Shown here piece by piece: positions 11,259 to 47,734 of a DNA stretch of 64,000 nucleotides. Made by a program: the position numbers and the translations under genes. Origin of the DNA: Rhodobacterales bacterium (GTDB lineage Bacteria > Pseudomonadota > Alphaproteobacteria > Rhodobacterales > CAZPXZ01). The stretch lies in the NCBI GenBank assembly GCA_965217995.1, contig CBDCKB010000004.1, forward strand, positions 2,123,729 through 2,187,728, written 5' to 3'. How positions within the stretch are numbered: position 1 is the stretch's first letter; every line of letters begins with the position of its first letter. The notes beneath the pieces were generated by a model. That model worked only from the letters and a program-made list of their open reading frames with translations. It was not told where the DNA came from and ran no database searches.

Positions 11259-12404
11259 ATGAAGCGGCGGAAATTCTTGATCGGCAGCGCGACCGGTGCA
11301 GCCGCAGGAACCGGTGCCGCGGCGGCATTCCTGTCCGGCCGCGGACCGAAAATCACCGGGGCGGTGCAGGAAGAACTGTATTCGCCGGCGGTCGCGCAGG
11401 AGCGCATCGAGTTCACCATGGTGTCGACATGGCCGCGGGACTTCCCCGGGGTTGGCACCGGTGCCCAGCGCTTCGCCCAGCGGATCACGGATATGACCGA
11501 AGGCCGGATCCAGGTGGAATATTTTGCGGCCGGCGAGCGGGTCGGAGCGTTCGACTCCTTTGACGAGGTCTCCTCGGGCAACGCCCAGGCCTACCATGCC
11601 GCCGACTACTACTGGAAGGGCAAGCATGCGAGCTGGGCCTATTTCACCACGGTGCCGTTCGGCCTGACCTACACCGAGATGAACGCCTGGATCCGTTTCG
11701 GTGGCGGCCAGGAACTGTGGGACGAGCTGGGGAGCGATTTCGGCATCAAGGGACTGATGTGCGGCAATACCAGCGTGCAGATGGGCGGCTGGTTCAACAA
11801 GGAAATCAACAGTGCCGAGGATCTGCAGGGGCTGAAGATGCGCATCCCGGGTCTGGGCGGTGATGTGATGGCCAAACTCGGCGCCTCGCCGGTCTCCCTC
11901 CCCGGCGGCCAGATCTACGAGAACCTGGTTTCCGGTGCCATCGACGCCGCCGAGTGGGTCGGGCCGTGGAATGACCAGGTCATGAAGTTCTACGAGGCGG
12001 CCAAGTATTACTACTACCCGGGCATGCACGAACCCGGAGGCATGCTTGCGGTCGGCCTCAACGACTCGTTCTGGAACAATCTCAGCAAATCCGACCAGCT
12101 CATCATCGAAGCCGCCTCCTCCATGGAGAACGACGTGATGATGGCGGAATACAACGCCAAGAACGGTGCCGCGCTGACAACCCTGATCCGGGATCAGGGA
12201 GTCCGGCTCCGGGAGTTCAACGACGACGTCTACGATGCCTTCGGCGAAGCCGCCGTCGAAGTGTTCGAAACGGTCCGCGTCCACAGCGACCTGGCACGCA
12301 GGGTCCACGAAAGTTTCCTCAAGGCGCGCAGGGAGATCGGCGGCTGGACGAACATTTCCGACCAGGCCTATGTCGCACAGCGCAACCGCGTCCTCGGCCT
12401 GTAG
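11259..12404 (+). CDS. TRAP transporter substrate-binding protein (COG4663-like), Tat signal
   Basis: MKRRKFLIGSATGAAAG.. twin-arginine leader; RBS GGAGA upstream; ..MVSTWPRDFPG.. Confidence 0.9.
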   Translation: MKRRKFLIGSATGAAAGTGAAAAFLSGRGPKITGAVQEELYSPAVAQERIEFTMVSTWPRDFPGVGTGAQRFAQRITDMTEGRIQVEYFAAGERVGAFDSFDEVSSGNAQAYHAADYYWKGKHASWAYFTTVPFGLTYTEMNAWIRFGGGQELWDELGSDFGIKGLMCGNTSVQMGGWFNKEINSAEDLQGLKMRIPGLGGDVMAKLGASPVSLPGGQIYENLVSGAIDAAEWVGPWNDQVMKFYEAAKYYYYPGMHEPGGMLAVGLNDSFWNNLSKSDQLIIEAASSMENDVMMAEYNAKNGAALTTLIRDQGVRLREFNDDVYDAFGEAAVEVFETVRVHSDLARRVHESFLKARREIGGWTNISDQAYVAQRNRVLGL

Positions 12405-12798: not shown

Positions 12799-13944
12799 AT
12801 GAAGCGTCGGGAATTCTTGAAAGGCGGTGCAACCGGTGCAGCCGTAGGAGCAGGCGCCGCGGCAGCACTCTTGTCCGGCCGCGGGCAGAAAATCGCTGGG
12901 GCTGTGCAGGAAGAGCTGTATTCGCCGGCGGTCGCGCAGGAGCGCATCGACGTCACCATGGTGTCGACATGGCCGCGGGACTTCCCAGGGCTGGGCACCG
13001 GTGCCCAGCGCTTCGCCCAGCGGATCTCGGATATGAGCGAAGGCCGGATCCAGGTGGAATATTTCTCGGCCGGCGAGCGGGTCGGAGCGTTCGACTCCTT
13101 TGACGAGGTCTCCTCGGGCAACGCCCAGATCTATCATGCCGCCGAATATTACTGGAAGGGCAAGCATCCGGGCTGGGCCTATTTCACCGCGGTGCCGTTC
13201 GGTCTGACCTACACCGAGCTGAACGCCTGGGTCCGCTTCGGCGGCGGCCAGGAACTGTGGGACGAGCTGGGGAACGAATTCGGCCTCAAGGCACTGATGT
13301 GCGGCAATACCGGCGTACAGATGGGCGGCTGGTTCAACAAGGAAATCAACAGTGCCGACGATCTGAAGGGGCTGAAGATGCGCATCCCGGGTCTGGGCGG
13401 TGATGTGATGGCCAAACTCGGCGCCTCGCCGGTCTCCCTCCCCGGCGGCCAGATCTACGAGAACCTGGTTTCCGGTGCCATCGATGCCACCGAGTGGGTC
13501 GGGCCGTGGAATGACCAGGTCATGAAGTTCTACGAGGCGGCCAAGTATTACTACTACCCGGGCATGCACGAACCCGGAGCCATGCTTGCGGCCGGCATCA
13601 ACGGCTCGTTCTGGAACAATCTCAGCAAATCCGACCAGCTCATCATCGAAGCCGCCTCCTCCATGGAGAACGACGTGATGATGGCGGAATACAACGCCAA
13701 GAACGGTGCCGCGCTGGCATCCCTGATCCGGGATCAGGGAGTCCAGCTCCGGGAGTTCAACGACGACGTCTACGACGCCTTCGGCGAAGCCGCGGTCGAG
13801 GTGTTCGAAACTGTCAGCGACCACAGCGACCTGGCAAGCAGGATCCACGAAAGTTTCCTCAAGGCGCGCGTGGAGATCGGTGGCTGGACGAACATTTCCG
13901 ACCAGGCCTACGTCGCACAGCGCAACCGCGTCCTCGGCCTGTAG
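12799..13944 (+). CDS. TRAP transporter substrate-binding protein, paralog 2
   Basis: MKRREFLKGGATGAAVG..; roughly nine-tenths identical to 11259..12404 by eye. Confidence 0.9.
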   Translation: MKRREFLKGGATGAAVGAGAAAALLSGRGQKIAGAVQEELYSPAVAQERIDVTMVSTWPRDFPGLGTGAQRFAQRISDMSEGRIQVEYFSAGERVGAFDSFDEVSSGNAQIYHAAEYYWKGKHPGWAYFTAVPFGLTYTELNAWVRFGGGQELWDELGNEFGLKALMCGNTGVQMGGWFNKEINSADDLKGLKMRIPGLGGDVMAKLGASPVSLPGGQIYENLVSGAIDATEWVGPWNDQVMKFYEAAKYYYYPGMHEPGAMLAAGINGSFWNNLSKSDQLIIEAASSMENDVMMAEYNAKNGAALASLIRDQGVQLREFNDDVYDAFGEAAVEVFETVSDHSDLASRIHESFLKARVEIGGWTNISDQAYVAQRNRVLGL

Positions 13945-14023: not shown

Positions 14024-15019
14024 ATGATTCGCGAGGCAGCGCCCCAGCCGGCCGATCTCCGGGGGGCCGCCCTCCGTGCGCTCGCTCTCTCGGTGGTCGC
14101 CCTGGCGGTCGCCTTCCTTGCCGACAGCTACCTGACCCTCGCCCAGGGCTGGCCGGGGGCGAGGGGCCTCCTCACCGGAGGCCCGGCCCTCGCCTGGGTC
14201 CAGGCGGCCCTGTATCCGGGACTGGTCGCCGTGGCCCTCGCCTGGATCTGGCGGACCTCTGACGCACCGCTCCGCCGGGATGCCGATCTGCTGTCCGGGC
14301 TGGTAACCTTCCTCATCCGGGCCGCCTTCTGGAGCGTCCTCATCGTCGGCGTCGCCGACATGCTGCTTTCCTTCCTCCGGGTCGAAGACTTCCTGTCCCT
14401 CTTCGTCGGCGAGGAGGCCACCAAGCTGATCGGCGTCCCGCGCTGGCGCGGAACCTTCATCCACATGCCGCTGATGCTGCTCGCGATCCTGATCGCGCTG
14501 CGCTGGCGGGGCCTCGGATTCATCTGGCTGGCGGCCCTCGTGGTGGTGGCCGAACTGTTCATCGTCCTGGCCCGTTTCATCTTCTCCTACGAGCAGGCCT
14601 TCATGGGCGATCTGGTGCGGTTCTGGTATGCCGCACTGTTCCTTTTTGCGAGCGCCCAGACCCTGGTCGAAGACGGACATGTGCGGGTCGATGTGCTCTA
14701 TGCGGGCTTTTCCGGGCGCGCCAAGGCGCGGACCAATCTCTTCGGCGCCGCCCTGCTCGGCATCCCGCTCTGCTGGACCGTCCTGATCCTCGGCCTGCGC
14801 AACAAGGCGGCCATCATCGCCAGTCCGATCCTCGCCTTCGAAACCACGCAGAGCGGATTCGGCCTGTATGTCAAATACATGATGGCAGGCTTCCTCGGCG
14901 TTTTTGCCGTCACGATGCTGATCCAGTTCACCGCCAGCCTCCTTTCCGCCGGGGCCGATCTCCTCGGCGAGCCGGGCGGGCGGAAACCGGACGAATCCGC
15001 GTCGATGCCTCCGGTGTAG
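14024..15019 (+). CDS. TRAP transporter small permease (DctQ-like) with extended N-terminal membrane region
   Basis: 331 aa; hydrophobic segments throughout; the C-terminal half resembles DctQ (..DGHVRVDVLY..). Confidence 0.8.
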   Translation: MIREAAPQPADLRGAALRALALSVVALAVAFLADSYLTLAQGWPGARGLLTGGPALAWVQAALYPGLVAVALAWIWRTSDAPLRRDADLLSGLVTFLIRAAFWSVLIVGVADMLLSFLRVEDFLSLFVGEEATKLIGVPRWRGTFIHMPLMLLAILIALRWRGLGFIWLAALVVVAELFIVLARFIFSYEQAFMGDLVRFWYAALFLFASAQTLVEDGHVRVDVLYAGFSGRAKARTNLFGAALLGIPLCWTVLILGLRNKAAIIASPILAFETTQSGFGLYVKYMMAGFLGVFAVTMLIQFTASLLSAGADLLGEPGGRKPDESASMPPV

Positions 15020-15034
15020 CGGAAAGATCCCCGA

Positions 15035-17683
15035 ATGGAGCTGCTGTTCGTCGCGATTCTGGTCCTGGTGATGGCCGGGGCATTGACGGCCGGCTATCCG
15101 GTGGCCTTCGCCCTGCCGGGGGCGGCGATCCTCACCATCGCTCTCGCCTCTCTCACCGGCCTGATCTTCGAGAACGACGTTTCGGCGTATTTCTACCAGG
15201 GCGGCCCCGTGCAATGGCTGAGCGCGGGGGTGACGAATTTCCGCGGCGTCTACTGGGAGGTCGAACGGGACACCCTGATCGCCATCCCGCTGTTCATCTT
15301 CATGGGCATCATGCTGCAGCGCTCGAAAATCGCCGAGGACCTGCTGGTGACCATGGCCCAGCTCTTCGGCCCGGTGCCGGGCGGACTCGGCATCTCGGTG
15401 GTGCTGGTCGGCGCCCTGCTGGCCGCGACCACCGGCATCATCGGTGCCACCGTGGTCGCGATGGGGCTGATCTCGCTGCCCGCCATGCTGCGCAACAACT
15501 ACTCCCACTCGCTGGCCACCGGCACGATCTGCGCCTCGGGCACGCTCGGGCAGATCATTCCGCCTTCGATCGTGCTGATCATCCTCGCCGACCAGCTCGC
15601 CACCGCCACGGACCAGGCCAGCACACTGCGCAAGGCGGAGTACAAGCACGGCACCGGCTCGAGCACTCTGCCGAGCGAATTCGATGTCGCCTCGACCAGT
15701 GCCGGCGACATGTTCCTCGGTGCCTTTCTGCCCGGCCTCGTGCTGGTCGGCCTCTATGTCCTCTACATTTTCGTGGCCGCCCGGCTGCGGCCGCACATTG
15801 CCCCGCCGGTGCCGTATGAAGGCTCCATCGACCGCCAGTTCGCCCTGCGCGTGATCCTCGCCCTGGTGCCGCCCCTGACCCTCATCCTTGCCGTTCTCGG
15901 CTCGATCATCCTCGGCATCGCCACCGTCAACCAGGCCGGCGCGATCGGCGCAGCGGGCGCCACCATCATGGCCGGCTACCGCCTCCAGGAGGGCAGATCC
16001 GGTGCCTTCCGGCCGGCGCTGCTGGCCGTCGCCTCGCTGGCCGCGATCCTAGTCCTGATCTCCATCTTCGATCTCAACATCAAGCACATCCGCGACGGCT
16101 TCGATCTGCTCGGCATCCTGCTCGCCGGCGGCGCCACGGCCACGCTGGTGGCGGCCCTCCTGTGGAGTGCCTGGCGGGTCATGCATATCGACGACACGCT
16201 CCGCGGCGTCATGCTGGAGACCGCCAAGACCACCTCGCTGGTGTTCATCATCCTGCTGGGTGCGGCGATGCTGACCGCAGCCTTCCGCGGCTTCGGCGGC
16301 GAGGAGCTGGTGAAGGAATTCCTCACCGGACTTCCGGGCGGCTTCTGGACACAGATCGTCGTCGTGATGGCGGTGATCTTCGTGCTCGGCTTCTTCCTCG
16401 ACTTCATCGAGATCGCCGTCGTGGTGGTCCCGATCATCGCCCCGATCCTGCTCGCCGACCCCTCCGCCAACATCACCGCCGTCTGGCTCGGGGTCATGAT
16501 CGGCGTCAATATCCAGACCTCCTTCCTGACCCCGCCCTTCGGCTTCGCACTGTTCTATCTGCGGGGCGTGGCCTCGAAGGTCGTCCGCACGATCGAGATC
16601 TACCGGGGCGTCGTCCCGTTCATCGTGCTGCAGCTGATCGGCCTCATGATCGTCGGGGCCTATCCCCCGCTGGTCAATTACATCCCCAATCGCGTCAGCC
16701 TGACCGCCGACACCGCGCCGCCGCCGATCAACCCCCGCCTGCAGGCCTGCATCGAGGAGGATCTCTTCGAGATCTATGCCGAACGCGAGGACGAGCTGCG
16801 CAGCCAGATGGAGGCGGCGGGCCGGCTCGATATGACCCCCCTGCCCCCCCGCATCCGTGATTCCTTCCGCATGAGCCTGGACCAGGCCGAAGCCACCTTT
16901 GCACTGGTGCAGACCATCCGGGAGGCGGAGGCCGCGCGGGAAGCCTATGTGCCGGAATACCGCCCGTTGCACCGGCGTGTCCGCCATGCCGAGCGGAAGA
17001 TTCGCCGCCTCGAGCAGGAGGCGCAGAAAACCGAGCAGAGACGTCGGAACCTGGCCCGCGCCGGTCTGCCCGAAACCGGGGAGACGGAAAAACTGGCCGA
17101 GATCAAGGAGAAGCAGAGGGCCCTTGCGGCTACCATCCCGGCCGAATGGGAGGAGGCACGCAGGCGCTATGTCGAACTGGCCGGGACCGTGAAGAAGGCC
17201 CGCACCACCTATCGGCGCAATGTCGACCAGGCCTATGGCACGCTGGTCCTGCTGCAGGCGACCCTGGACTCCGCGGATGAGCTGGCGGCACTCACGGACC
17301 GCCACCGGGAGATGGAGCAGGCGGTACAGATCCGCGATCCGATGGAAGCGGCCGACACCCTGCGCGCCTTCGAGCGCGAGCTGAATACCGTGGCCGAGAC
17401 CAGCGCGATCCGCGGCCTGGTGACCCAGGCGCGACGGCTGCTGACGCGGAAGAGCGACCGCGAGGGTGCCGTGAACCGGCTCCGCGAAGCCGCCGCGCTG
17501 CATGCGGAGGAGGCGGCCTGGCGCTCGGTGGCCGCACAGGTGCTGCGGGACGGTCTCGACCGCTATGAGGAATCCATCCGCAACACCCTCGGCCTGCGCC
17601 AGCAGGACCGCATCGACAGCGGACGCGCCGCCGGTCTGGCGATCTGCCTCGCCCATCACCGCGACATCTCGCTCGATTTCTGA
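15035..17683 (+). CDS. TRAP transporter large permease (DctM-like) fused to a ~330-aa charged C-terminal tail
   Basis: Single uninterrupted 882-aa ORF; the polytopic part runs to ~16680, then an Arg/Glu/Ala-rich non-hydrophobic tail. Confidence 0.85.
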   Translation: MELLFVAILVLVMAGALTAGYPVAFALPGAAILTIALASLTGLIFENDVSAYFYQGGPVQWLSAGVTNFRGVYWEVERDTLIAIPLFIFMGIMLQRSKIAEDLLVTMAQLFGPVPGGLGISVVLVGALLAATTGIIGATVVAMGLISLPAMLRNNYSHSLATGTICASGTLGQIIPPSIVLIILADQLATATDQASTLRKAEYKHGTGSSTLPSEFDVASTSAGDMFLGAFLPGLVLVGLYVLYIFVAARLRPHIAPPVPYEGSIDRQFALRVILALVPPLTLILAVLGSIILGIATVNQAGAIGAAGATIMAGYRLQEGRSGAFRPALLAVASLAAILVLISIFDLNIKHIRDGFDLLGILLAGGATATLVAALLWSAWRVMHIDDTLRGVMLETAKTTSLVFIILLGAAMLTAAFRGFGGEELVKEFLTGLPGGFWTQIVVVMAVIFVLGFFLDFIEIAVVVVPIIAPILLADPSANITAVWLGVMIGVNIQTSFLTPPFGFALFYLRGVASKVVRTIEIYRGVVPFIVLQLIGLMIVGAYPPLVNYIPNRVSLTADTAPPPINPRLQACIEEDLFEIYAEREDELRSQMEAAGRLDMTPLPPRIRDSFRMSLDQAEATFALVQTIREAEAAREAYVPEYRPLHRRVRHAERKIRRLEQEAQKTEQRRRNLARAGLPETGETEKLAEIKEKQRALAATIPAEWEEARRRYVELAGTVKKARTTYRRNVDQAYGTLVLLQATLDSADELAALTDRHREMEQAVQIRDPMEAADTLRAFERELNTVAETSAIRGLVTQARRLLTRKSDREGAVNRLREAAALHAEEAAWRSVAAQVLRDGLDRYEESIRNTLGLRQQDRIDSGRAAGLAICLAHHRDISLDF

Positions 17684-17746
17684 AGGTACCGGCATGCACG
17701 ACGCGCTCCCCCCCGCAGGACGGCTCAATCTCCCCTTCCGGCGGGC

Positions 17747-19060
17747 TTGCTGATGATCCCGCGCTACACCCGGCCGGAGATGGCGGAGCTCTGGTCTCCC
17801 CAGACCCGCTACCGCATCTGGTACGAGATCGAGGCGCATGCCTGCGACGCGCTGGCGGCCTGCGGGGCGATCCCCCAAGAGGCGGCGGAGGCGGTGTGGA
17901 AGGCGAAAGACACCGATTTCGATCTCGCGCGGATCGAGGAGATCGAGGCCGAGACCCGGCACGATGTGATCGCCTTCCTCACCCATCTCGCCGAGATCGT
18001 CGGCCCCCAGTCCCGGTTCGTCCACCAGGGCCTGACCTCCTCGGATGTGCTCGACACCTGCCTGGCGGTACAGCTTTCGCGCGCGGCCGATCTGCTGGAT
18101 GCGGATCTCGCCCGGGTGCTGGCCGCGCTCCGCCGCCGGGCCTTCGAGCACCGGCACACCCCCTGCATCGGACGGTCGCACGGGATCCATGCCGAGCCCA
18201 CCAGTTTCGGCGTCAAACTGGCCCAGGCCCATGCCGAAATGGAACGCGGAAGGCGGCGGTTGCGGCAGGCCCGCGAGGAGATCGCCGTCTGCGCCATCTC
18301 CGGTGCGGTGGGCATCTATGCCACCCTCGACCCGTCGGTCGAGATCCATGTCGCCCAGCGCCTCGGCCTGAAACCGGAGACGGTCTCGACCCAGGTGGTG
18401 CCGCGCGACCGGCATGCGGCGTTCTTCTGCACGCTGGCGGTGATCGCCTCCTCCATCGAGCGGATTGCGACCGAGATCCGGCATCTGCAGCGGACCGAGG
18501 TCGGCGAGGTCGAGGAACGGTTCGCCCCGGGGCAGAAGGGCTCCAGTGCCATGCCGCACAAGCGCAACCCGGTGCTGAGCGAAAACCTGGTCGGCCTCGC
18601 CCGGCTGGTGCGGATGGCCGCGGCCCCGGCGCTGGAGAATGTCGCCCTCTGGCACGAGCGTGACATCACGCACTCCTCGGTCGAGCGCGGCATCGCGCCG
18701 GATGCCACCGCGACCCTGGATTTCGCGCTGATCCGTCTTGCGGAGGTGATCGAGGATCTGCAGGTGCGGCCCGAGGCCATGGCCCGCAATCTCGACCGGC
18801 TCGGCGGTGCCGTCTATTCGGAGCGCGTCCTGCTGCTGCTGACCCAGAAAGGCCTGGCCCGCGAGGAGGCCTACCGGATCGTGCAGGCGGCCGCGATGCG
18901 GACCCTGCAGGAGGGAGTTCCCCTCATCGAGATTCTGCGCGAAGTGCCGGAAATCCGGGAACGGATCCCGCCGGACGAACTCGAGCCGCTATTCGATCCG
19001 GCCCACGCGCTGCGCCATGTCGATGCGATCTTCGCGCGGGTCTTCGGGGAAGAGTCCTAG
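17747..19060 (+). CDS. purB: adenylosuccinate lyase
   Basis: MIPRYTRPEM..; GQKGSSAMPHKRNP signature. Confidence 0.95.
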   Translation: MLMIPRYTRPEMAELWSPQTRYRIWYEIEAHACDALAACGAIPQEAAEAVWKAKDTDFDLARIEEIEAETRHDVIAFLTHLAEIVGPQSRFVHQGLTSSDVLDTCLAVQLSRAADLLDADLARVLAALRRRAFEHRHTPCIGRSHGIHAEPTSFGVKLAQAHAEMERGRRRLRQAREEIAVCAISGAVGIYATLDPSVEIHVAQRLGLKPETVSTQVVPRDRHAAFFCTLAVIASSIERIATEIRHLQRTEVGEVEERFAPGQKGSSAMPHKRNPVLSENLVGLARLVRMAAAPALENVALWHERDITHSSVERGIAPDATATLDFALIRLAEVIEDLQVRPEAMARNLDRLGGAVYSERVLLLLTQKGLAREEAYRIVQAAAMRTLQEGVPLIEILREVPEIRERIPPDELEPLFDPAHALRHVDAIFARVFGEES

Positions 19061-19383
19061 CCGGCTTCCTTCAGCACCTGCACCTGCGCCTCGCGCAGAC
19101 AGGCAACCAGCTGCTCGCGCAGTTCCTTCTCCGGGATGGCAACCCCCCTGGCCTCCAGATCCGGCTGCACATGCGCGAGGATGTCATCATCCCCCTCCTC
19201 CCGGAGGCTGCTGACGACCACCTCTCCGGCATAGGTCGCGGCGGTCTCTCCCTCCATCCCGAGACGCTCGGCGATCCAGAGTCCGAACAGTTTGGCGTGG
19301 CGGGCATCGGCCTTGAAGCGCAACGTCTCGTCCAGCGCAAACTTCTTTTCGAACAAATCTGTTCGGTCATCAAATGTGGTCAC
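19057..19383 (-). CDS. DUF1476 protein (F1-ATPase inhibitor zeta-subunit-like), GTG start
   Basis: [28 protein letters not shown].. closely parallels the Paracoccus zeta subunit N-terminus. Confidence 0.75.
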
Positions 19384-19481
19384 TTCGGCCCTCCCGGCGG
19401 TCTTCGCTTGCAGTGTGCTACGATGCGAATTATACACTTCTATGCAGTGCCGCACAGGCACCCCCCGAACAGGAGAGTGCT

Positions 19482-20258
19482 ATGGCCCGCCGCCGGATGG
19501 TTTACGAAGGCAAGGCCAAAATCCTTTACGAGGGACCGGAGGCCGGAACCCTTGTGCAGTATTTCAAGGACGACGCCACCGCATTCAACGGGAAGAAGCA
19601 CAAGATCCTCGACGGCAAGGGGGTGCTGAACAACCGCATCTGCGAGCATATCATGGAGAGTCTGAACAGTGTCAGCGTGCCGACCCACTTCATCCGTCGG
19701 CTGAACATGCGCGAGCAGCTCGTCCGGGCGGTCGAGATCATCCCCCTGGAAATGGTGGTGCGCAACGTCGCCGCGGGTTCCTTCTGCAAGCGCTTCGGCC
19801 TCGAGGAGGGCAAGCCGCTGCCGCGCCCGGTGGCCGAGTTCTACCTCAAGGATGACAAGCTCGGCGACCCGCTGGTCAACGAGGACCACATCCTCTCCTT
19901 CGGCTGGGCCACCCATCACGAGATCGAGGACATGCTCACCCTGGCCGTCCGGATCAATGATTTCCTCACCGGCCTGTTTCTTGGCTCCGGCATCCGGCTG
20001 GTGGATTTCAAGATCGAATGCGGACGGGAGTGGAAGAACGACATGGAACGGGTGATCGTCGCCGACGAAATCAGCCCGGACACCTGCCGGCTGTGGGATC
20101 TGACGAGCGACCGGCGGCTGGACAAGGATGTGTTCCGCAATGATCTGGGCGACCTGATCGATGCCTATTCGGAGGTCGCGCGACGGCTCGGCATCATCCG
20201 CGACAATGATGTCAGCGAAATCACCGGGCCCCAGATCGTCCACCGGGCGATGCACTGA
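19482..20258 (+). CDS. purC: phosphoribosylaminoimidazole-succinocarboxamide synthase
   Basis: [20 protein letters not shown].. inside ORF 19374..20258. Confidence 0.95.
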
Positions 20259-24164: not shown

Positions 24165-24238
24165 TGGGGGATAGTTTAACGGCAGAACTGCGGACTCTGA
24201 CTCCGTCGGTCCAGGTTCGAATCCTGGTCCCCCAGCCA
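24165..24238 (+). tRNA. tRNA-Gln (anticodon CUG)
   Basis: Manual cloverleaf: acceptor TGGGGGA/TCCCCCA, D stem GTT/AAC, anticodon stem GCGGA/TCCGT, loop CT-CTG-AC, T arm CCAGG-TTCGAAT-CCTGG, encoded CCA; 74 nt. Confidence 0.9.
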
Positions 24239-46165: not shown

Positions 46166-47734
46166 TCAGCCCGGGCGCATGACCTCCCGCGGCAGTTTGA
46201 TATCGAAACTCCCGCGGATCCGGGCATCCATCTCCTCACTGACATAATCCGGGAAATGCCCGTCGAGGATCTCGCGCTTGCGCTGGGTGGCCCGGTCCAG
46301 AATGTCGAGACGTCCTTCCTCCGCCCATTCCTTGGGGGATGTCCGGTCGGCGATCTCGGGATAGATGTATTCGCTCTGCATCAGCTTCAGGGTCTGGTCC
46401 GAGCCCAGATAATGGCCCGGCCCGTTGAGGCAGACCTCGCGGATGGTGTCCACCGAGCAATTTTCCTCGTTCACCTCGATTCCGCGCAGGCACCGCAGAC
46501 CCGCGCCCAGCATGTCGTTGTCGATGAGCAGGGATTCGGGCGAAAAGCCGAGCAGAGAAGCATGCATGCCGGCGGCCTCATAGACCATGTTGACGCCGGA
46601 AAGGCCCGCCATGACCGTGGTCATGCCCTTCTCGTAGCCGGATTGCGCGTCGGGCAGTTTGGCGTCGGCCATGCCGGCCGCGGAGGCGGTCGGAAGTCCG
46701 TAGAAACGCCCCATCTGCCCGCAGGCCGCGGTCAGCAGGGACTGCTCGCCGGAGCCCCCGGACATCGCCCCGGTCCGCAGATCGGAGACAAAGGGCCAGG
46801 AACCGGCGACGACCGGATGGCCCGGAGAGATGGCGTTCACATAGAGCAGTCCGGTGATGGCCTCGGCAAAGGCCTGTGCCACCGCCCCGGCGATCGCGGC
46901 CGGTGCCGTGGCGCCGGCCTGCCCGGCCGACAGGGCCAGAATCGGCACGCCGGCCCGCGCCCCCGCCTCCAGCACCGCGCAGGAATCCCAGGCGAATTTC
47001 AGAGGCGGCACGACAAAGCAATTCGCGTTGCTGATGAACGGCTTTCTCCGCCAGGCAGCCTCGCCGCCCGCGACGCAATGCAGCAGTTCGATCACCCCCT
47101 TGAACGTGGTGCTGTCATTGATGGACATGCCGACATGCTTGCGGATGCCGGCCAGGCAGACATAGGCGGTGTTGATATCGAGGTCGAGCGGGGTGGGCAT
47201 GTCCCGCGCGATCAGCGGGCGCTGGAAGTAGTGGATGTTGTCGCAGAGATCGGCAATGCGGGCCGCATCGTAGAGGTCGCGGAGCATGGATTCGCGGTAT
47301 TCCCGCTTCTCGAGATCGACGACATGGACCGCCGCCCCGCCCGTGCCGTAATAGGCCCGGTCCCCGCAGGGATTGATGTCATAGGCCGGGTCGCGTGCAT
47401 ACCAGACAAAATCCCGGTTGGCCGCGGCGATGGCGTCCTCGACCAGGGCGCGGGGAAACCGTATCCGGCCGGTTTCCGAATCCTGGATCGCACCCGCACC
47501 GATCAGGGTCCGGGCCGTGAAATCGGGGGCTTCGCCGAAACCGATCTCTTCGAGAATGCGGAGGACGGCCTGGTGGATCTGCTCGATGCCGGCGGCATCG
47601 AGGGGGCCCTGCCCCGGGCTCGACATGCCCGGCCGGACCGGGCGCAGATCCGCCGCCAGGGGGGCGGTACGTATCTCACGGCGCGCACGGCGCCCGCCGG
47701 CACGGCGTGGCGCGCTACCGGAAGATGAAGCCAT
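46166..47734 (-). CDS. trimethylamine methyltransferase (MttB) superfamily protein, non-pyrrolysine type
   Basis: 522-aa uninterrupted ORF; ..IHQAVLRILEEIG..LSAGQAGATAP..YLGSDQTL.. Confidence 0.9.
   Translation of the reverse strand: MASSSGSAPRRAGGRRARREIRTAPLAADLRPVRPGMSSPGQGPLDAAGIEQIHQAVLRILEEIGFGEAPDFTARTLIGAGAIQDSETGRIRFPRALVEDAIAAANRDFVWYARDPAYDINPCGDRAYYGTGGAAVHVVDLEKREYRESMLRDLYDAARIADLCDNIHYFQRPLIARDMPTPLDLDINTAYVCLAGIRKHVGMSINDSTTFKGVIELLHCVAGGEAAWRRKPFISNANCFVVPPLKFAWDSCAVLEAGARAGVPILALSAGQAGATAPAAIAGAVAQAFAEAITGLLYVNAISPGHPVVAGSWPFVSDLRTGAMSGGSGEQSLLTAACGQMGRFYGLPTASAAGMADAKLPDAQSGYEKGMTTVMAGLSGVNMVYEAAGMHASLLGFSPESLLIDNDMLGAGLRCLRGIEVNEENCSVDTIREVCLNGPGHYLGSDQTLKLMQSEYIYPEIADRTSPKEWAEEGRLDILDRATQRKREILDGHFPDYVSEEMDARIRGSFDIKLPREVMRPG

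What the first reader, a model, noticed from the sequence alone, without database searches (positions are those of the whole stretch)
16680..17683. TRAP large permease continues in frame into a ~330-aa charged, coiled-coil-like cytoplasmic tail
ORF 15035..17683 (882 aa) has a normal polytopic DctM-like part up to about ..PPLVNYIPNR. It then continues with no stop codon through Arg/Glu/Ala-rich sequence that lacks hydrophobic segments (REAEAAREAYVPEYRPLHRRVRHAERKIRRLEQEAQKTEQRRRNLARAG...LREAAALHAEEAAWRS...). To my knowledge DctM subunits are roughly half this length. The partner DctQ (14024..15019, 331 aa) also carries extra N-terminal membrane segments. A large soluble helical appendage on a TRAP membrane subunit could be a regulatory, scaffolding or oligomerisation module.
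Basis: partly seen in the sequence, partly recalled or inferred. Interest (0 to 1): 0.55.

Follow-up and report, generated by a model that had tools for sequence, protein, structure and literature searches.

The report
Helical domain fused to TRAP permease
The long tail on this nutrient-transporter membrane subunit is a real, widely conserved and so far unannotated all-helical domain that defines a distinct TRAP transporter subfamily, and it most likely projects into the periplasm, not the cytoplasm as first proposed.

Summary
ORF 15035..17683 encodes 882 aa: a 549-aa DctM core followed in frame by a 333-aa hydrophilic domain with normal coding signal. It is not an artefact. At least 575 species-representative genomes encode the domain. 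In every fetched locus not cut by a contig end (one exception), it shares one frame with a complete DctM core, behind a TakP-like binding protein and an unusually long DctQ. Pfam, NCBIfam, PDB sequences and two Foldseek libraries give no match, and the searched literature does not mention it. AlphaFold (pLDDT 87.5) and coevolution agree on a roughly 100 Å helical hairpin stalk, with both chain ends at a conserved base. The "cytoplasmic" reading is probably wrong. Canonical M subunits end on the periplasmic side, the inserts add even numbers of helices, the tail has no hydrophobic segment, and the charge bias around the last helix fits in→out. Exactly two invariant cysteines occur in all 74 sequences. 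The tail co-occurs and co-varies with a four-helix N-terminal extension of DctQ. Function is untested. The best guess is a periplasmic accessory module of an enlarged TRAP complex: a new variant of a known kind.

The parts
11259..12404 (+). DctP paralogue 1: TakP-like TRAP solute-binding protein with a twin-arginine-like signal (MKRRKFL...)
   Evidence: ORF. It is 89% identical to paralogue 2.
12799..13944 (+). DctP paralogue 2: TakP-like TRAP solute-binding protein
   Evidence: Pfam DctP E 4e-54. Closest solved structures are 4pet, 7ug8 (ketoacid-binding protein), 5cm6 and 2hzk (TakP), at E 1e-70 to 6e-77, aligned through residue 352 of 365 of TakP. Orthologues in related loci are 66-86% identical.
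14024..14518 (+). Family-specific N-terminal extension of DctQ (aa 1-165, four hydrophobic segments)
   Evidence: Hydropathy. Absent from the Phaeobacter and Sulfitobacter outgroup Q subunits of 173 and 192 aa. Conserved motifs W..WPG and SFLRVE. Its divergence tracks the tail best.
14519..15019 (+). Canonical DctQ core (aa 166-331) and stop codon
   Evidence: Pfam DctQ match at aa 179-306, 30.2 bits against a cut-off of 28.3.
15035..16681 (+). DctM core (aa 1-549)
   Evidence: Pfam DctM E 4e-62. Aligns to the solved TRAP M subunits 7qha_B, 7qe5_A and 8thi_A up to ...LVNYIPNR.
15992..16174 (+). Insert of about 60 aa in the DctM core with two hydrophobic helices (aa ~320-380) joined by a 5-aa loop
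   Evidence: Gap relative to 7qha_B and to the Sulfitobacter M subunits. Present in the Phaeobacter M subunit.
16682..16732 (+). Conserved Pro-rich linker after the last transmembrane helix (IPNRVSLTADTAPPPIN; family consensus L-T-x-E/D-T-A-P-P-P-x-N-P)
   Evidence: Conservation over 74 sequences. Low pLDDT at its start in the model.
16733..17656 (+). All-helical stalk domain (aa 567-874). It consists of a long hairpin (hC with hD/hE), a third long helix hJ packing back on it, and a conserved base formed by hA and hK. It contains invariant C572 (16748-16750), H646 (16970-16972) and C871 (17645-17647).
   Evidence: AlphaFold2 pLDDT 87.5, pTM 0.78. DCA couplings. Invariant residues. No match in Pfam, NCBIfam, PDB or Foldseek.
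17657..17683 (+). Near-invariant C-terminal motif HRDISL(N/D)F and the stop codon
   Evidence: At least 90% conserved. Low pLDDT in both models. Weak coupling between H97 and I329 in tail numbering.

Best explanation
The tail is a genuine, previously unannotated all-alpha domain of about 330 aa. It is permanently fused to the C-terminus of the M (large permease) subunit in a distinct, widespread TRAP subfamily. The operon is a TakP-like binding protein, then an eight-segment DctQ, then DctM carrying a two-helix insert and the tail. The domain most likely lies in the periplasm. A conserved Pro-rich linker leaves the last transmembrane helix, which Peter et al. assign to the moving bundle. The domain forms a helical hairpin stalk about 100 Å long. 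Its N- and C-terminal ends come together in a conserved base close to the membrane, probably stapled by the two invariant cysteines. The tip is variable. Inferred mechanism: the base sits on the periplasmic face beside the family-specific DctQ extension. Together they form an accessory module that braces or tethers the transport domain and shapes the site where the binding protein docks. Shown: reality of the fusion, its conservation, the helical architecture and the co-occurrence with the DctQ extension. Inferred: compartment (strong), disulfide (moderate), contact with the DctQ extension (weak) and role in transport (speculative).
For: Fusion and conservation:
- The tail alone finds 18 homologues at 31-48% identity, 15 of them covering 98-100% of it.
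- At least 575 genome hits.
- In the 80 fetched loci the tail shares one open frame with a DctM core. 73 passed the full-length filter, 6 are cut by a contig end and L019 is broken.
- 733 representative clusters match.
- The top 120 full-length hits are 878-890 aa.

Operon: DctP, long DctQ and DctM+tail are conserved.

Fold: pLDDT 87.5 and pTM 0.78, all helical. An independent DCA on 276 sequences gives antiparallel hC-hD/hE and hC-hJ contacts, and hA contacts with hK and the loop at 300-312.

Compartment:
- The M domain has a periplasmic N-terminus and ten transmembrane helices plus two hairpins, and natural M-P fusions exist (PMC5812351; PMC9352664).
- Canonical M ends 3-6 residues after the point where the tail starts.
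- The inserts add two helices (M) and four helices (Q).
- The tail has no hydrophobic segment.
- K+R averages 2.9 before and 1.0 after the last helix in 74 sequences.
- There are exactly two cysteines, both invariant, in 74 of 74 tails.

Link to DctQ: the extension is absent from tail-less outgroups. Distance matrices give r = 0.85 and partial r = 0.48 between the tail and the DctQ extension, against 0.00 for DctP.
Against: - No experiment or model places the tail relative to the membrane. The full-length AlphaFold model was poor in the membrane part (pLDDT 30-60, pTM 0.46) and no coordinates were available.
- The two invariant cysteines could form a Cys2His2-type metal site with invariant H646 and near-invariant H875. 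That reading does not discriminate between compartments.
- The correlation between the tail and the DctQ extension may only reflect that both evolve fast (mean distances 0.58 and 0.52).
- No structural or sequence relative suggests a biochemical activity.
- The tail is highly charged (56 K+R and 57 D+E), which is unusual but not excluded for an exported domain.
Confidence: 0.5

Rival explanations
1. The tail is a periplasmic arm that captures or docks the binding protein. It would bind the TakP-like, presumably helix-swapped dimeric, DctP and hold it at the transporter, or present the second protomer.
For: The DctP here belongs to the TakP clade and aligns through TakP's C-terminal helix. TakP is a helix-swapped dimer, and how such dimers work with QM is an open question (PMC1839085; PMC5812351). 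The tail would emerge next to the docking site of the binding protein's C-terminal lobe (PMC9352664). The C-terminal motif is conserved but poorly modelled, which suggests an interaction peptide.
Against: After controlling for the other components, tail divergence shows no residual correlation with DctP (partial r = 0.00). DctP is far more conserved (66-86%) than the tail (36-49%). The stalk tip is variable and has indels. I did not test whether tail-less TakP-type systems exist.
Confidence: 0.2
2. The tail is a cytoplasmic regulatory, scaffolding or oligomerisation domain.
For: It is hydrophilic, Arg- and Glu-rich and helical, with weak coiled-coil-type hits (SMC E 0.002). An invariant Cys2 plus His2 could form a cytoplasmic-type zinc site.
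Against: This requires the last helix to end in the cytoplasm. That contradicts the conserved fold of solved M subunits, the natural M-P fusions and the charge bias. No extra hydrophobic segment exists to re-cross the membrane.
Confidence: 0.1
3. The tail is a homo-oligomerisation module, in either compartment, that dimerises QM complexes and replaces the weak lipid-mediated dimer seen for HiSiaQM.
For: It has long amphipathic helices. HiSiaQM shows a monomer-dimer equilibrium with a tiny interface (PMC10942642). The binding protein family is dimeric.
Against: The monomer model is already a self-contained bundle with pTM 0.78, and the strongest couplings are explained by intramolecular contacts. 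No multimer prediction was possible.
Confidence: 0.1
4. The feature is an artefact: sequencing readthrough, a lost stop codon, or a separate downstream gene starting at ATG 16808 and fused by error.
For: A few database entries carry only half of M plus the tail (P0013-P0015).
Against: The tail shares one frame with a complete core in 73 independent genomes. GC3 is continuous. Conservation runs across the junction. Met592 is Ile in 64 of 74 members. The half-M entries checked (P0013, P0015) are frame-broken contigs.
Confidence: 0.01

Closest known systems
Canonical TRAP large permease DctM / SiaM (Pfam PF06808; solved as PpSiaQM 7qha and HiSiaQM 7qe5/8thi)
   Same: The core (aa 1-549) is homologous over the whole M fold, including the IPPS and TPPFG hairpin motifs. 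It works with a DctQ and a DctP encoded in the same operon.
   Different: This protein carries a 333-aa soluble C-terminal domain, a two-helix insert of about 60 aa and a hydrophilic insert of about 33 aa. Its partner Q is twice the normal length. It scores below the NCBIfam TIGR00786 cut-off (251.9 against 268.45).
TakPQM alpha-keto-acid TRAP system of Rhodobacter sphaeroides (TakP structure 2hzk/2hzl)
   Same: The binding protein is a close structural-family relative (E 1.4e-70) and aligns through the C-terminal helix that mediates TakP's swapped dimer.
   Different: TakQ and TakM have not been characterised, and I could not check their lengths. The substrate of the present system is untested. 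The family's DctP proteins form a much tighter group (66-86% identity) than their similarity to TakP suggests.
Tail-less relatives on Roseobacter plasmids (Phaeobacter gallaeciensis pP11_c: Q 173 aa, M 516 aa; Sulfitobacter sp. W027: Q 192 aa, M 463 and 440 aa)
   Same: 41-53% identity in the M core. The Phaeobacter M subunit shares the two-helix insert.
   Different: They end 3-5 residues after the ...LP motif where this tail begins, and they lack the DctQ extension.
Natural M-P fusion TRAP transporters (for example Acidaminococcus intestini G4Q5D7, cited in PMC9352664)
   Same: They are a precedent for a large periplasmic domain fused directly to the C-terminus of M.
   Different: There the fused domain is the binding protein itself. 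Here it is an unrelated helical domain, and a separate DctP is still encoded.
TPAT systems (TatT accessory component of a TRAP-like transporter)
   Same: An extra all-helical extracytoplasmic component accompanies a TRAP-type binding protein and permease (PMC5812351).
   Different: TatT is a separate TPR protein that trimerises and binds the binding protein. No sequence or fold similarity was found here.

Membership tests
TRAP transporter DctM large permease (Pfam PF06808) | Significant match to the DctM profile over the whole membrane domain | tested here: met
   E 4e-62, 210.8 bits against a cut-off of 23.8. Aligns to the solved M subunits up to their C-termini.
TRAP transporter DctM large permease (NCBIfam TIGR00786 dctM subfamily) | Score at or above the curated cut-off of 268.45 bits | tested here: not met
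   251.9 bits. The inserts split the match, so this is an atypical member.
Tripartite TRAP system | Genes for a DctP-type binding protein and a DctQ small permease adjacent to DctM | tested here: met
   DctP E 4e-54. DctQ 30.2 bits against a cut-off of 28.3. The gene order is conserved in the related loci.
Tripartite TRAP system | Binding-protein-dependent, ion-gradient-driven uptake | not testable with these tools
   Requires transport assays.
TakP-type (COG4663-like) alpha-keto-acid binding proteins | Close similarity to TakP, including the long C-terminal helix used for the swapped dimer | tested here: met
   2hzk_A at E 1.4e-70, query 33-372 aligned to chain residues 12-352 of 365. 7ug8 'ketoacid-binding protein' at E 5.9e-73.
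TakP-type (COG4663-like) alpha-keto-acid binding proteins | Binds alpha-keto acids with a cation; dimeric in solution | not testable with these tools
   Requires ligand screening and AUC or SEC.
Any described protein domain family, for the tail (Pfam-A 2025, NCBIfam 20.0) | Profile match above the curated threshold | tested here: not met
   The best Pfam E-value is 0.034. The only NCBIfam hit is SMC at E 0.002, 15.9 bits against a cut-off of 567. No family recurs over 10 members.
Any solved fold, for the tail (PDB and BFVD by Foldseek; PDB by profile) | Significant structural or sequence match | tested here: not met
   Best Foldseek E 0.07 with TM-scores up to 0.25 (PDB) and E 0.015 with TM-score 0.23 (BFVD). 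Best profile E 0.078.
Dimeric coiled-coil / SMC-like proteins | Extended two-chain coiled coil that needs a partner chain | tested here: inconclusive
   The monomer folds into an intramolecular antiparallel bundle (pTM 0.78; DCA).

The most novel reading that the evidence does not exclude
The stalk is an active periplasmic element of the transport cycle. Its near-invariant, flexible C-terminal peptide HRDISLxF, ending in a free Phe carboxylate, might act as a tethered pseudo-substrate or latch. It would occupy the carboxylate-recognising site of the TakP-like binding protein, or the mouth of the transporter. That would gate binding-protein docking or tether the dimeric binding protein to an enlarged QM complex. 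It would be a new way of coupling a soluble receptor to an elevator transporter.
Probability: 0.07. Interest if true: 0.8.

Novelty: new variant of a known kind. Interest (0 to 1): 0.55.

Why it matters
TRAP transporters are usually described as a four-helix Q subunit, an M subunit of about 425 aa with a flat periplasmic surface, and a free binding protein. This subfamily is found in hundreds of proteobacterial and other species. Here Q is doubled, M has two extra helices, and M carries a 330-aa extramembrane stalk attached to the last helix of the bundle that moves during transport. If the stalk is periplasmic, it sits where the binding protein docks. The binding protein belongs to the TakP clade, and how that clade's dimers cooperate with QM is an acknowledged open question. 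The domain has no Pfam family and no structural relative, so it is a candidate new domain family and a target for cryo-EM and genetics. In practical terms, annotation pipelines label these proteins as ordinary "TRAP transporter large permease subunit" and miss more than a third of the protein.

Tried and rejected
- Artefact or separate ORF: rejected.
- Opposite-strand ORF 16049..18673 (874 aa): rejected. It is a high-GC shadow, because GC3 periodicity and all homology lie on the + strand.
- Known domain: Pfam and NCBIfam on the tail, and Pfam on 10 members, gave only coiled-coil noise.
- PDB profile search gave nothing significant.
- Foldseek against PDB and BFVD gave nothing significant.
- The full-length AlphaFold model, meant to show which face the tail sits on, failed.
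- The whole-protein positive-inside analysis was uninformative because of the re-entrant hairpins. Only the local test on the last helix was usable.
- Plasmid search for the tail found no match.
- Odd architectures were uninformative: P0051 and P0080 are frameshift artefacts, and P0087 and P0126 look chimeric.
- A true split of M into two genes was considered and rejected for P0013 and P0015, which are frame-broken contigs, while the close relative P0018 reads through. P0014 was not checked.
- Conserved neighbours look like housekeeping genes (parC-, bpt-, recO- and era-like, judged by eye and not scanned), so they give no functional clue.
- Seven literature searches found no description of the domain.
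Full report
**Observation**

The + strand ORF 15035..17683 encodes 882 aa. Pfam DctM covers about aa 11-545 (E 4e-62). Residues 550-882 (window 16682-17680) match no Pfam or NCBIfam family above noise. They have no hydrophobic segment and are rich in Ala, Arg, Glu and Leu. GC3 stays at 0.80-0.91 through the tail, as in the core, so it is coding. The long antisense ORF 16049..18673 is a high-GC shadow. The upstream DctQ (14024..15019, 331 aa) has about 165 extra N-terminal residues with four hydrophobic segments.

**The tail is real and conserved**

- The tail alone retrieves 18 proteins at 31-48% identity. Fifteen cover 98-100% of it, and most with enough N-terminal sequence carry DctM.
They are mostly Alpha- and Gammaproteobacteria, plus SAR324 and an Acidimicrobiia bin.
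- In all 80 fetched loci the tail shares an open frame with a DctM core. Seventy-three passed the full-length filter, six are cut by a contig end and L019 is broken.
- An exhaustive profile search found 733 representative clusters.
- The top 120 hits to the whole protein are 878-890 aa and are named only "TRAP transporter large permease subunit" or similar.
- Met592, the ATG at 16808, is Ile in 64 of 74 members, so it is not a start.
- Entries with half of M plus the tail (P0013, P0015) come from contigs where M is broken by frame changes. A close relative reads through the same site.

**A distinct TRAP architecture**

The order DctP, long DctQ, DctM plus tail is conserved. The nearest tail-less relatives lie on Roseobacter plasmids: Phaeobacter has Q of 173 aa and M of 516 aa, and Sulfitobacter has Q of 192 aa and M of 463 and 440 aa. 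They end 3-5 residues after the "...LP" motif where this tail begins, and they lack the DctQ extension.

Relative to solved M subunits, the core has a hydrophilic insert (about aa 185-217) and an insert of about 60 aa with two hydrophobic helices.

The binding protein is TakP-like. Its closest solved structures are 4pet, 7ug8 "ketoacid-binding protein", 5cm6 and 2hzk, and it aligns through TakP's C-terminal helix. TakP is a helix-swapped dimer that binds alpha-keto acids (PMC1839085). The window holds two tandem copies that are 89% identical.

**Fold**

AlphaFold2 on a ten-sequence alignment gives pLDDT 87.5 and pTM 0.78. The model is all helical, with helices of 71, 41 and 40 residues.

My mean-field DCA on 276 unique tails (Neff 215) independently gives these contacts, in tail numbering:
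- hC with hE, antiparallel: 75-180, 86-170, 89-163.
- hC with hD, antiparallel: 111-145, 118-142.
- hJ packing on the N-terminal half of hC: 53-287, 49-291.
- The N-terminal helix hA, which holds C23, contacting the C-terminal loop and helix hK, which holds C322: 24-305, 24-319, 31-302, 8-316.

The domain is therefore a hairpin stalk roughly 100 Å long. Both chain ends meet in a conserved base, and the tip is variable with indels.

No solved or predicted structure resembles it significantly.

**Compartment**

The evidence points the other way.
- The M domain starts in the periplasm (PMC5812351).
- It has ten membrane-spanning helices plus two re-entrant hairpins (PMC9352664), so it also ends in the periplasm.
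- Natural M-P fusions exist.
- Canonical M ends within a few residues of the point where this tail starts.
- The family-specific inserts add even numbers of helices.
- Nothing in the tail can re-cross the membrane.
- Across 74 sequences the flank before the last helix has 2.9 K+R and the flank after it has 1.0.
- Every one of 74 tails has exactly two cysteines, both invariant, and coevolution places them near each other. This fits a periplasmic disulfide.

There is a caveat. H646 is invariant and H875 is near-invariant, so a Cys2His2 metal site is an alternative reading. The full-length model was too poor to show orientation. I put the periplasmic location at about 85%.

**Function**

Function is inferred only. 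The tail and the DctQ extension co-occur. Across 63 loci, tail divergence correlates best with the DctQ extension (r = 0.85; partial r = 0.48 given all other parts). It does not correlate with DctP once the other parts are controlled (0.00). Both regions evolve fast, so this is only suggestive. The extension has conserved motifs at its predicted periplasmic helix ends.

The tail hangs from the last helix, which Peter et al. assign to the moving bundle. My best guess is a periplasmic accessory module that braces or tethers the transport domain and shapes the docking site. Direct capture of the dimeric binding protein and homo-oligomerisation remain possible.

Recurring neighbours look like housekeeping genes. 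Two divergent loci sit beside LeuA-like, carboxylase and acyl-CoA dehydrogenase genes, which hints weakly at branched-chain 2-oxo acids.

**Novelty**

The transporter kind is known. The architecture and the domain appear undescribed: there is no Pfam or NCBIfam family, no structural relative, and nothing in seven literature searches. I classify it as a new variant of a known kind.

Noticed in passing
window 11259-12404 and 12799-13944: Two tandem copies of the TakP-like binding-protein gene, 89% identical at the protein level. Nearly all related loci show a single copy. Because TakP-type proteins dimerise, a heterodimer is conceivable.
   Followed up: partly
window 11259-11330 and 12799-12870: Both DctP paralogues begin with a twin-arginine-like signal (MKRR(K/E)FL followed by an Ala/Gly-rich stretch). 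There is a weak hit to the formate dehydrogenase TAT-target model (E 0.061).
   Followed up: no
window 46573-46672 (- strand): Rfam PYLIS_3 (pyrrolysine insertion sequence of mttB) matches at 64.5 bits, above its gathering score of 38. This presumably marks an MttB-family methyltransferase gene.
   Followed up: no
window 24165-24235 (+ strand): A tRNA gene (Rfam RF00005, 63.7 bits).
   Followed up: no
L083 3980-6635 and L084 3972-6632: In two divergent family members from long contigs, the M gene is broken by frame changes. Both share a break at about aa 341-354, inside the inserted hairpin, and L084 has a second break. This is probably an assembly error or a pseudogene. The shared position could also be a homopolymer hot spot or, less likely, a true split.
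   Followed up: partly
L083 1-1562 and 8066-11638; L084 6807-8405: Neighbours in two divergent loci: a dCache sensor kinase with a response regulator; an acyl-CoA dehydrogenase; BioY with carboxyltransferase and biotin carboxylase; and a LeuA/HMGL-like synthase. This hints weakly at branched-chain 2-oxo-acid or leucine metabolism.
   Followed up: no
window 17747-19060 and 19374-20258: Directly downstream lie ORFs that I read by eye as adenylosuccinate lyase-like (purB) and SAICAR synthase-like (purC); they were not scanned. In many related genomes the operon sits among genes that look like parC, bpt, recO and era. The transporter therefore seems to lie in a core-genome region and not in a catabolic island.
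   Followed up: partly
window 15173-15265 (DctM aa 47-77): A 31-aa net-acidic loop that is almost invariant in the family (F53, P58, W61, N68, F69, R70, Y73, W74...). It carries an insertion of about 17 aa relative to tail-less relatives. It is predicted to be periplasmic and could be a contact site for the base of the tail.
   Followed up: no
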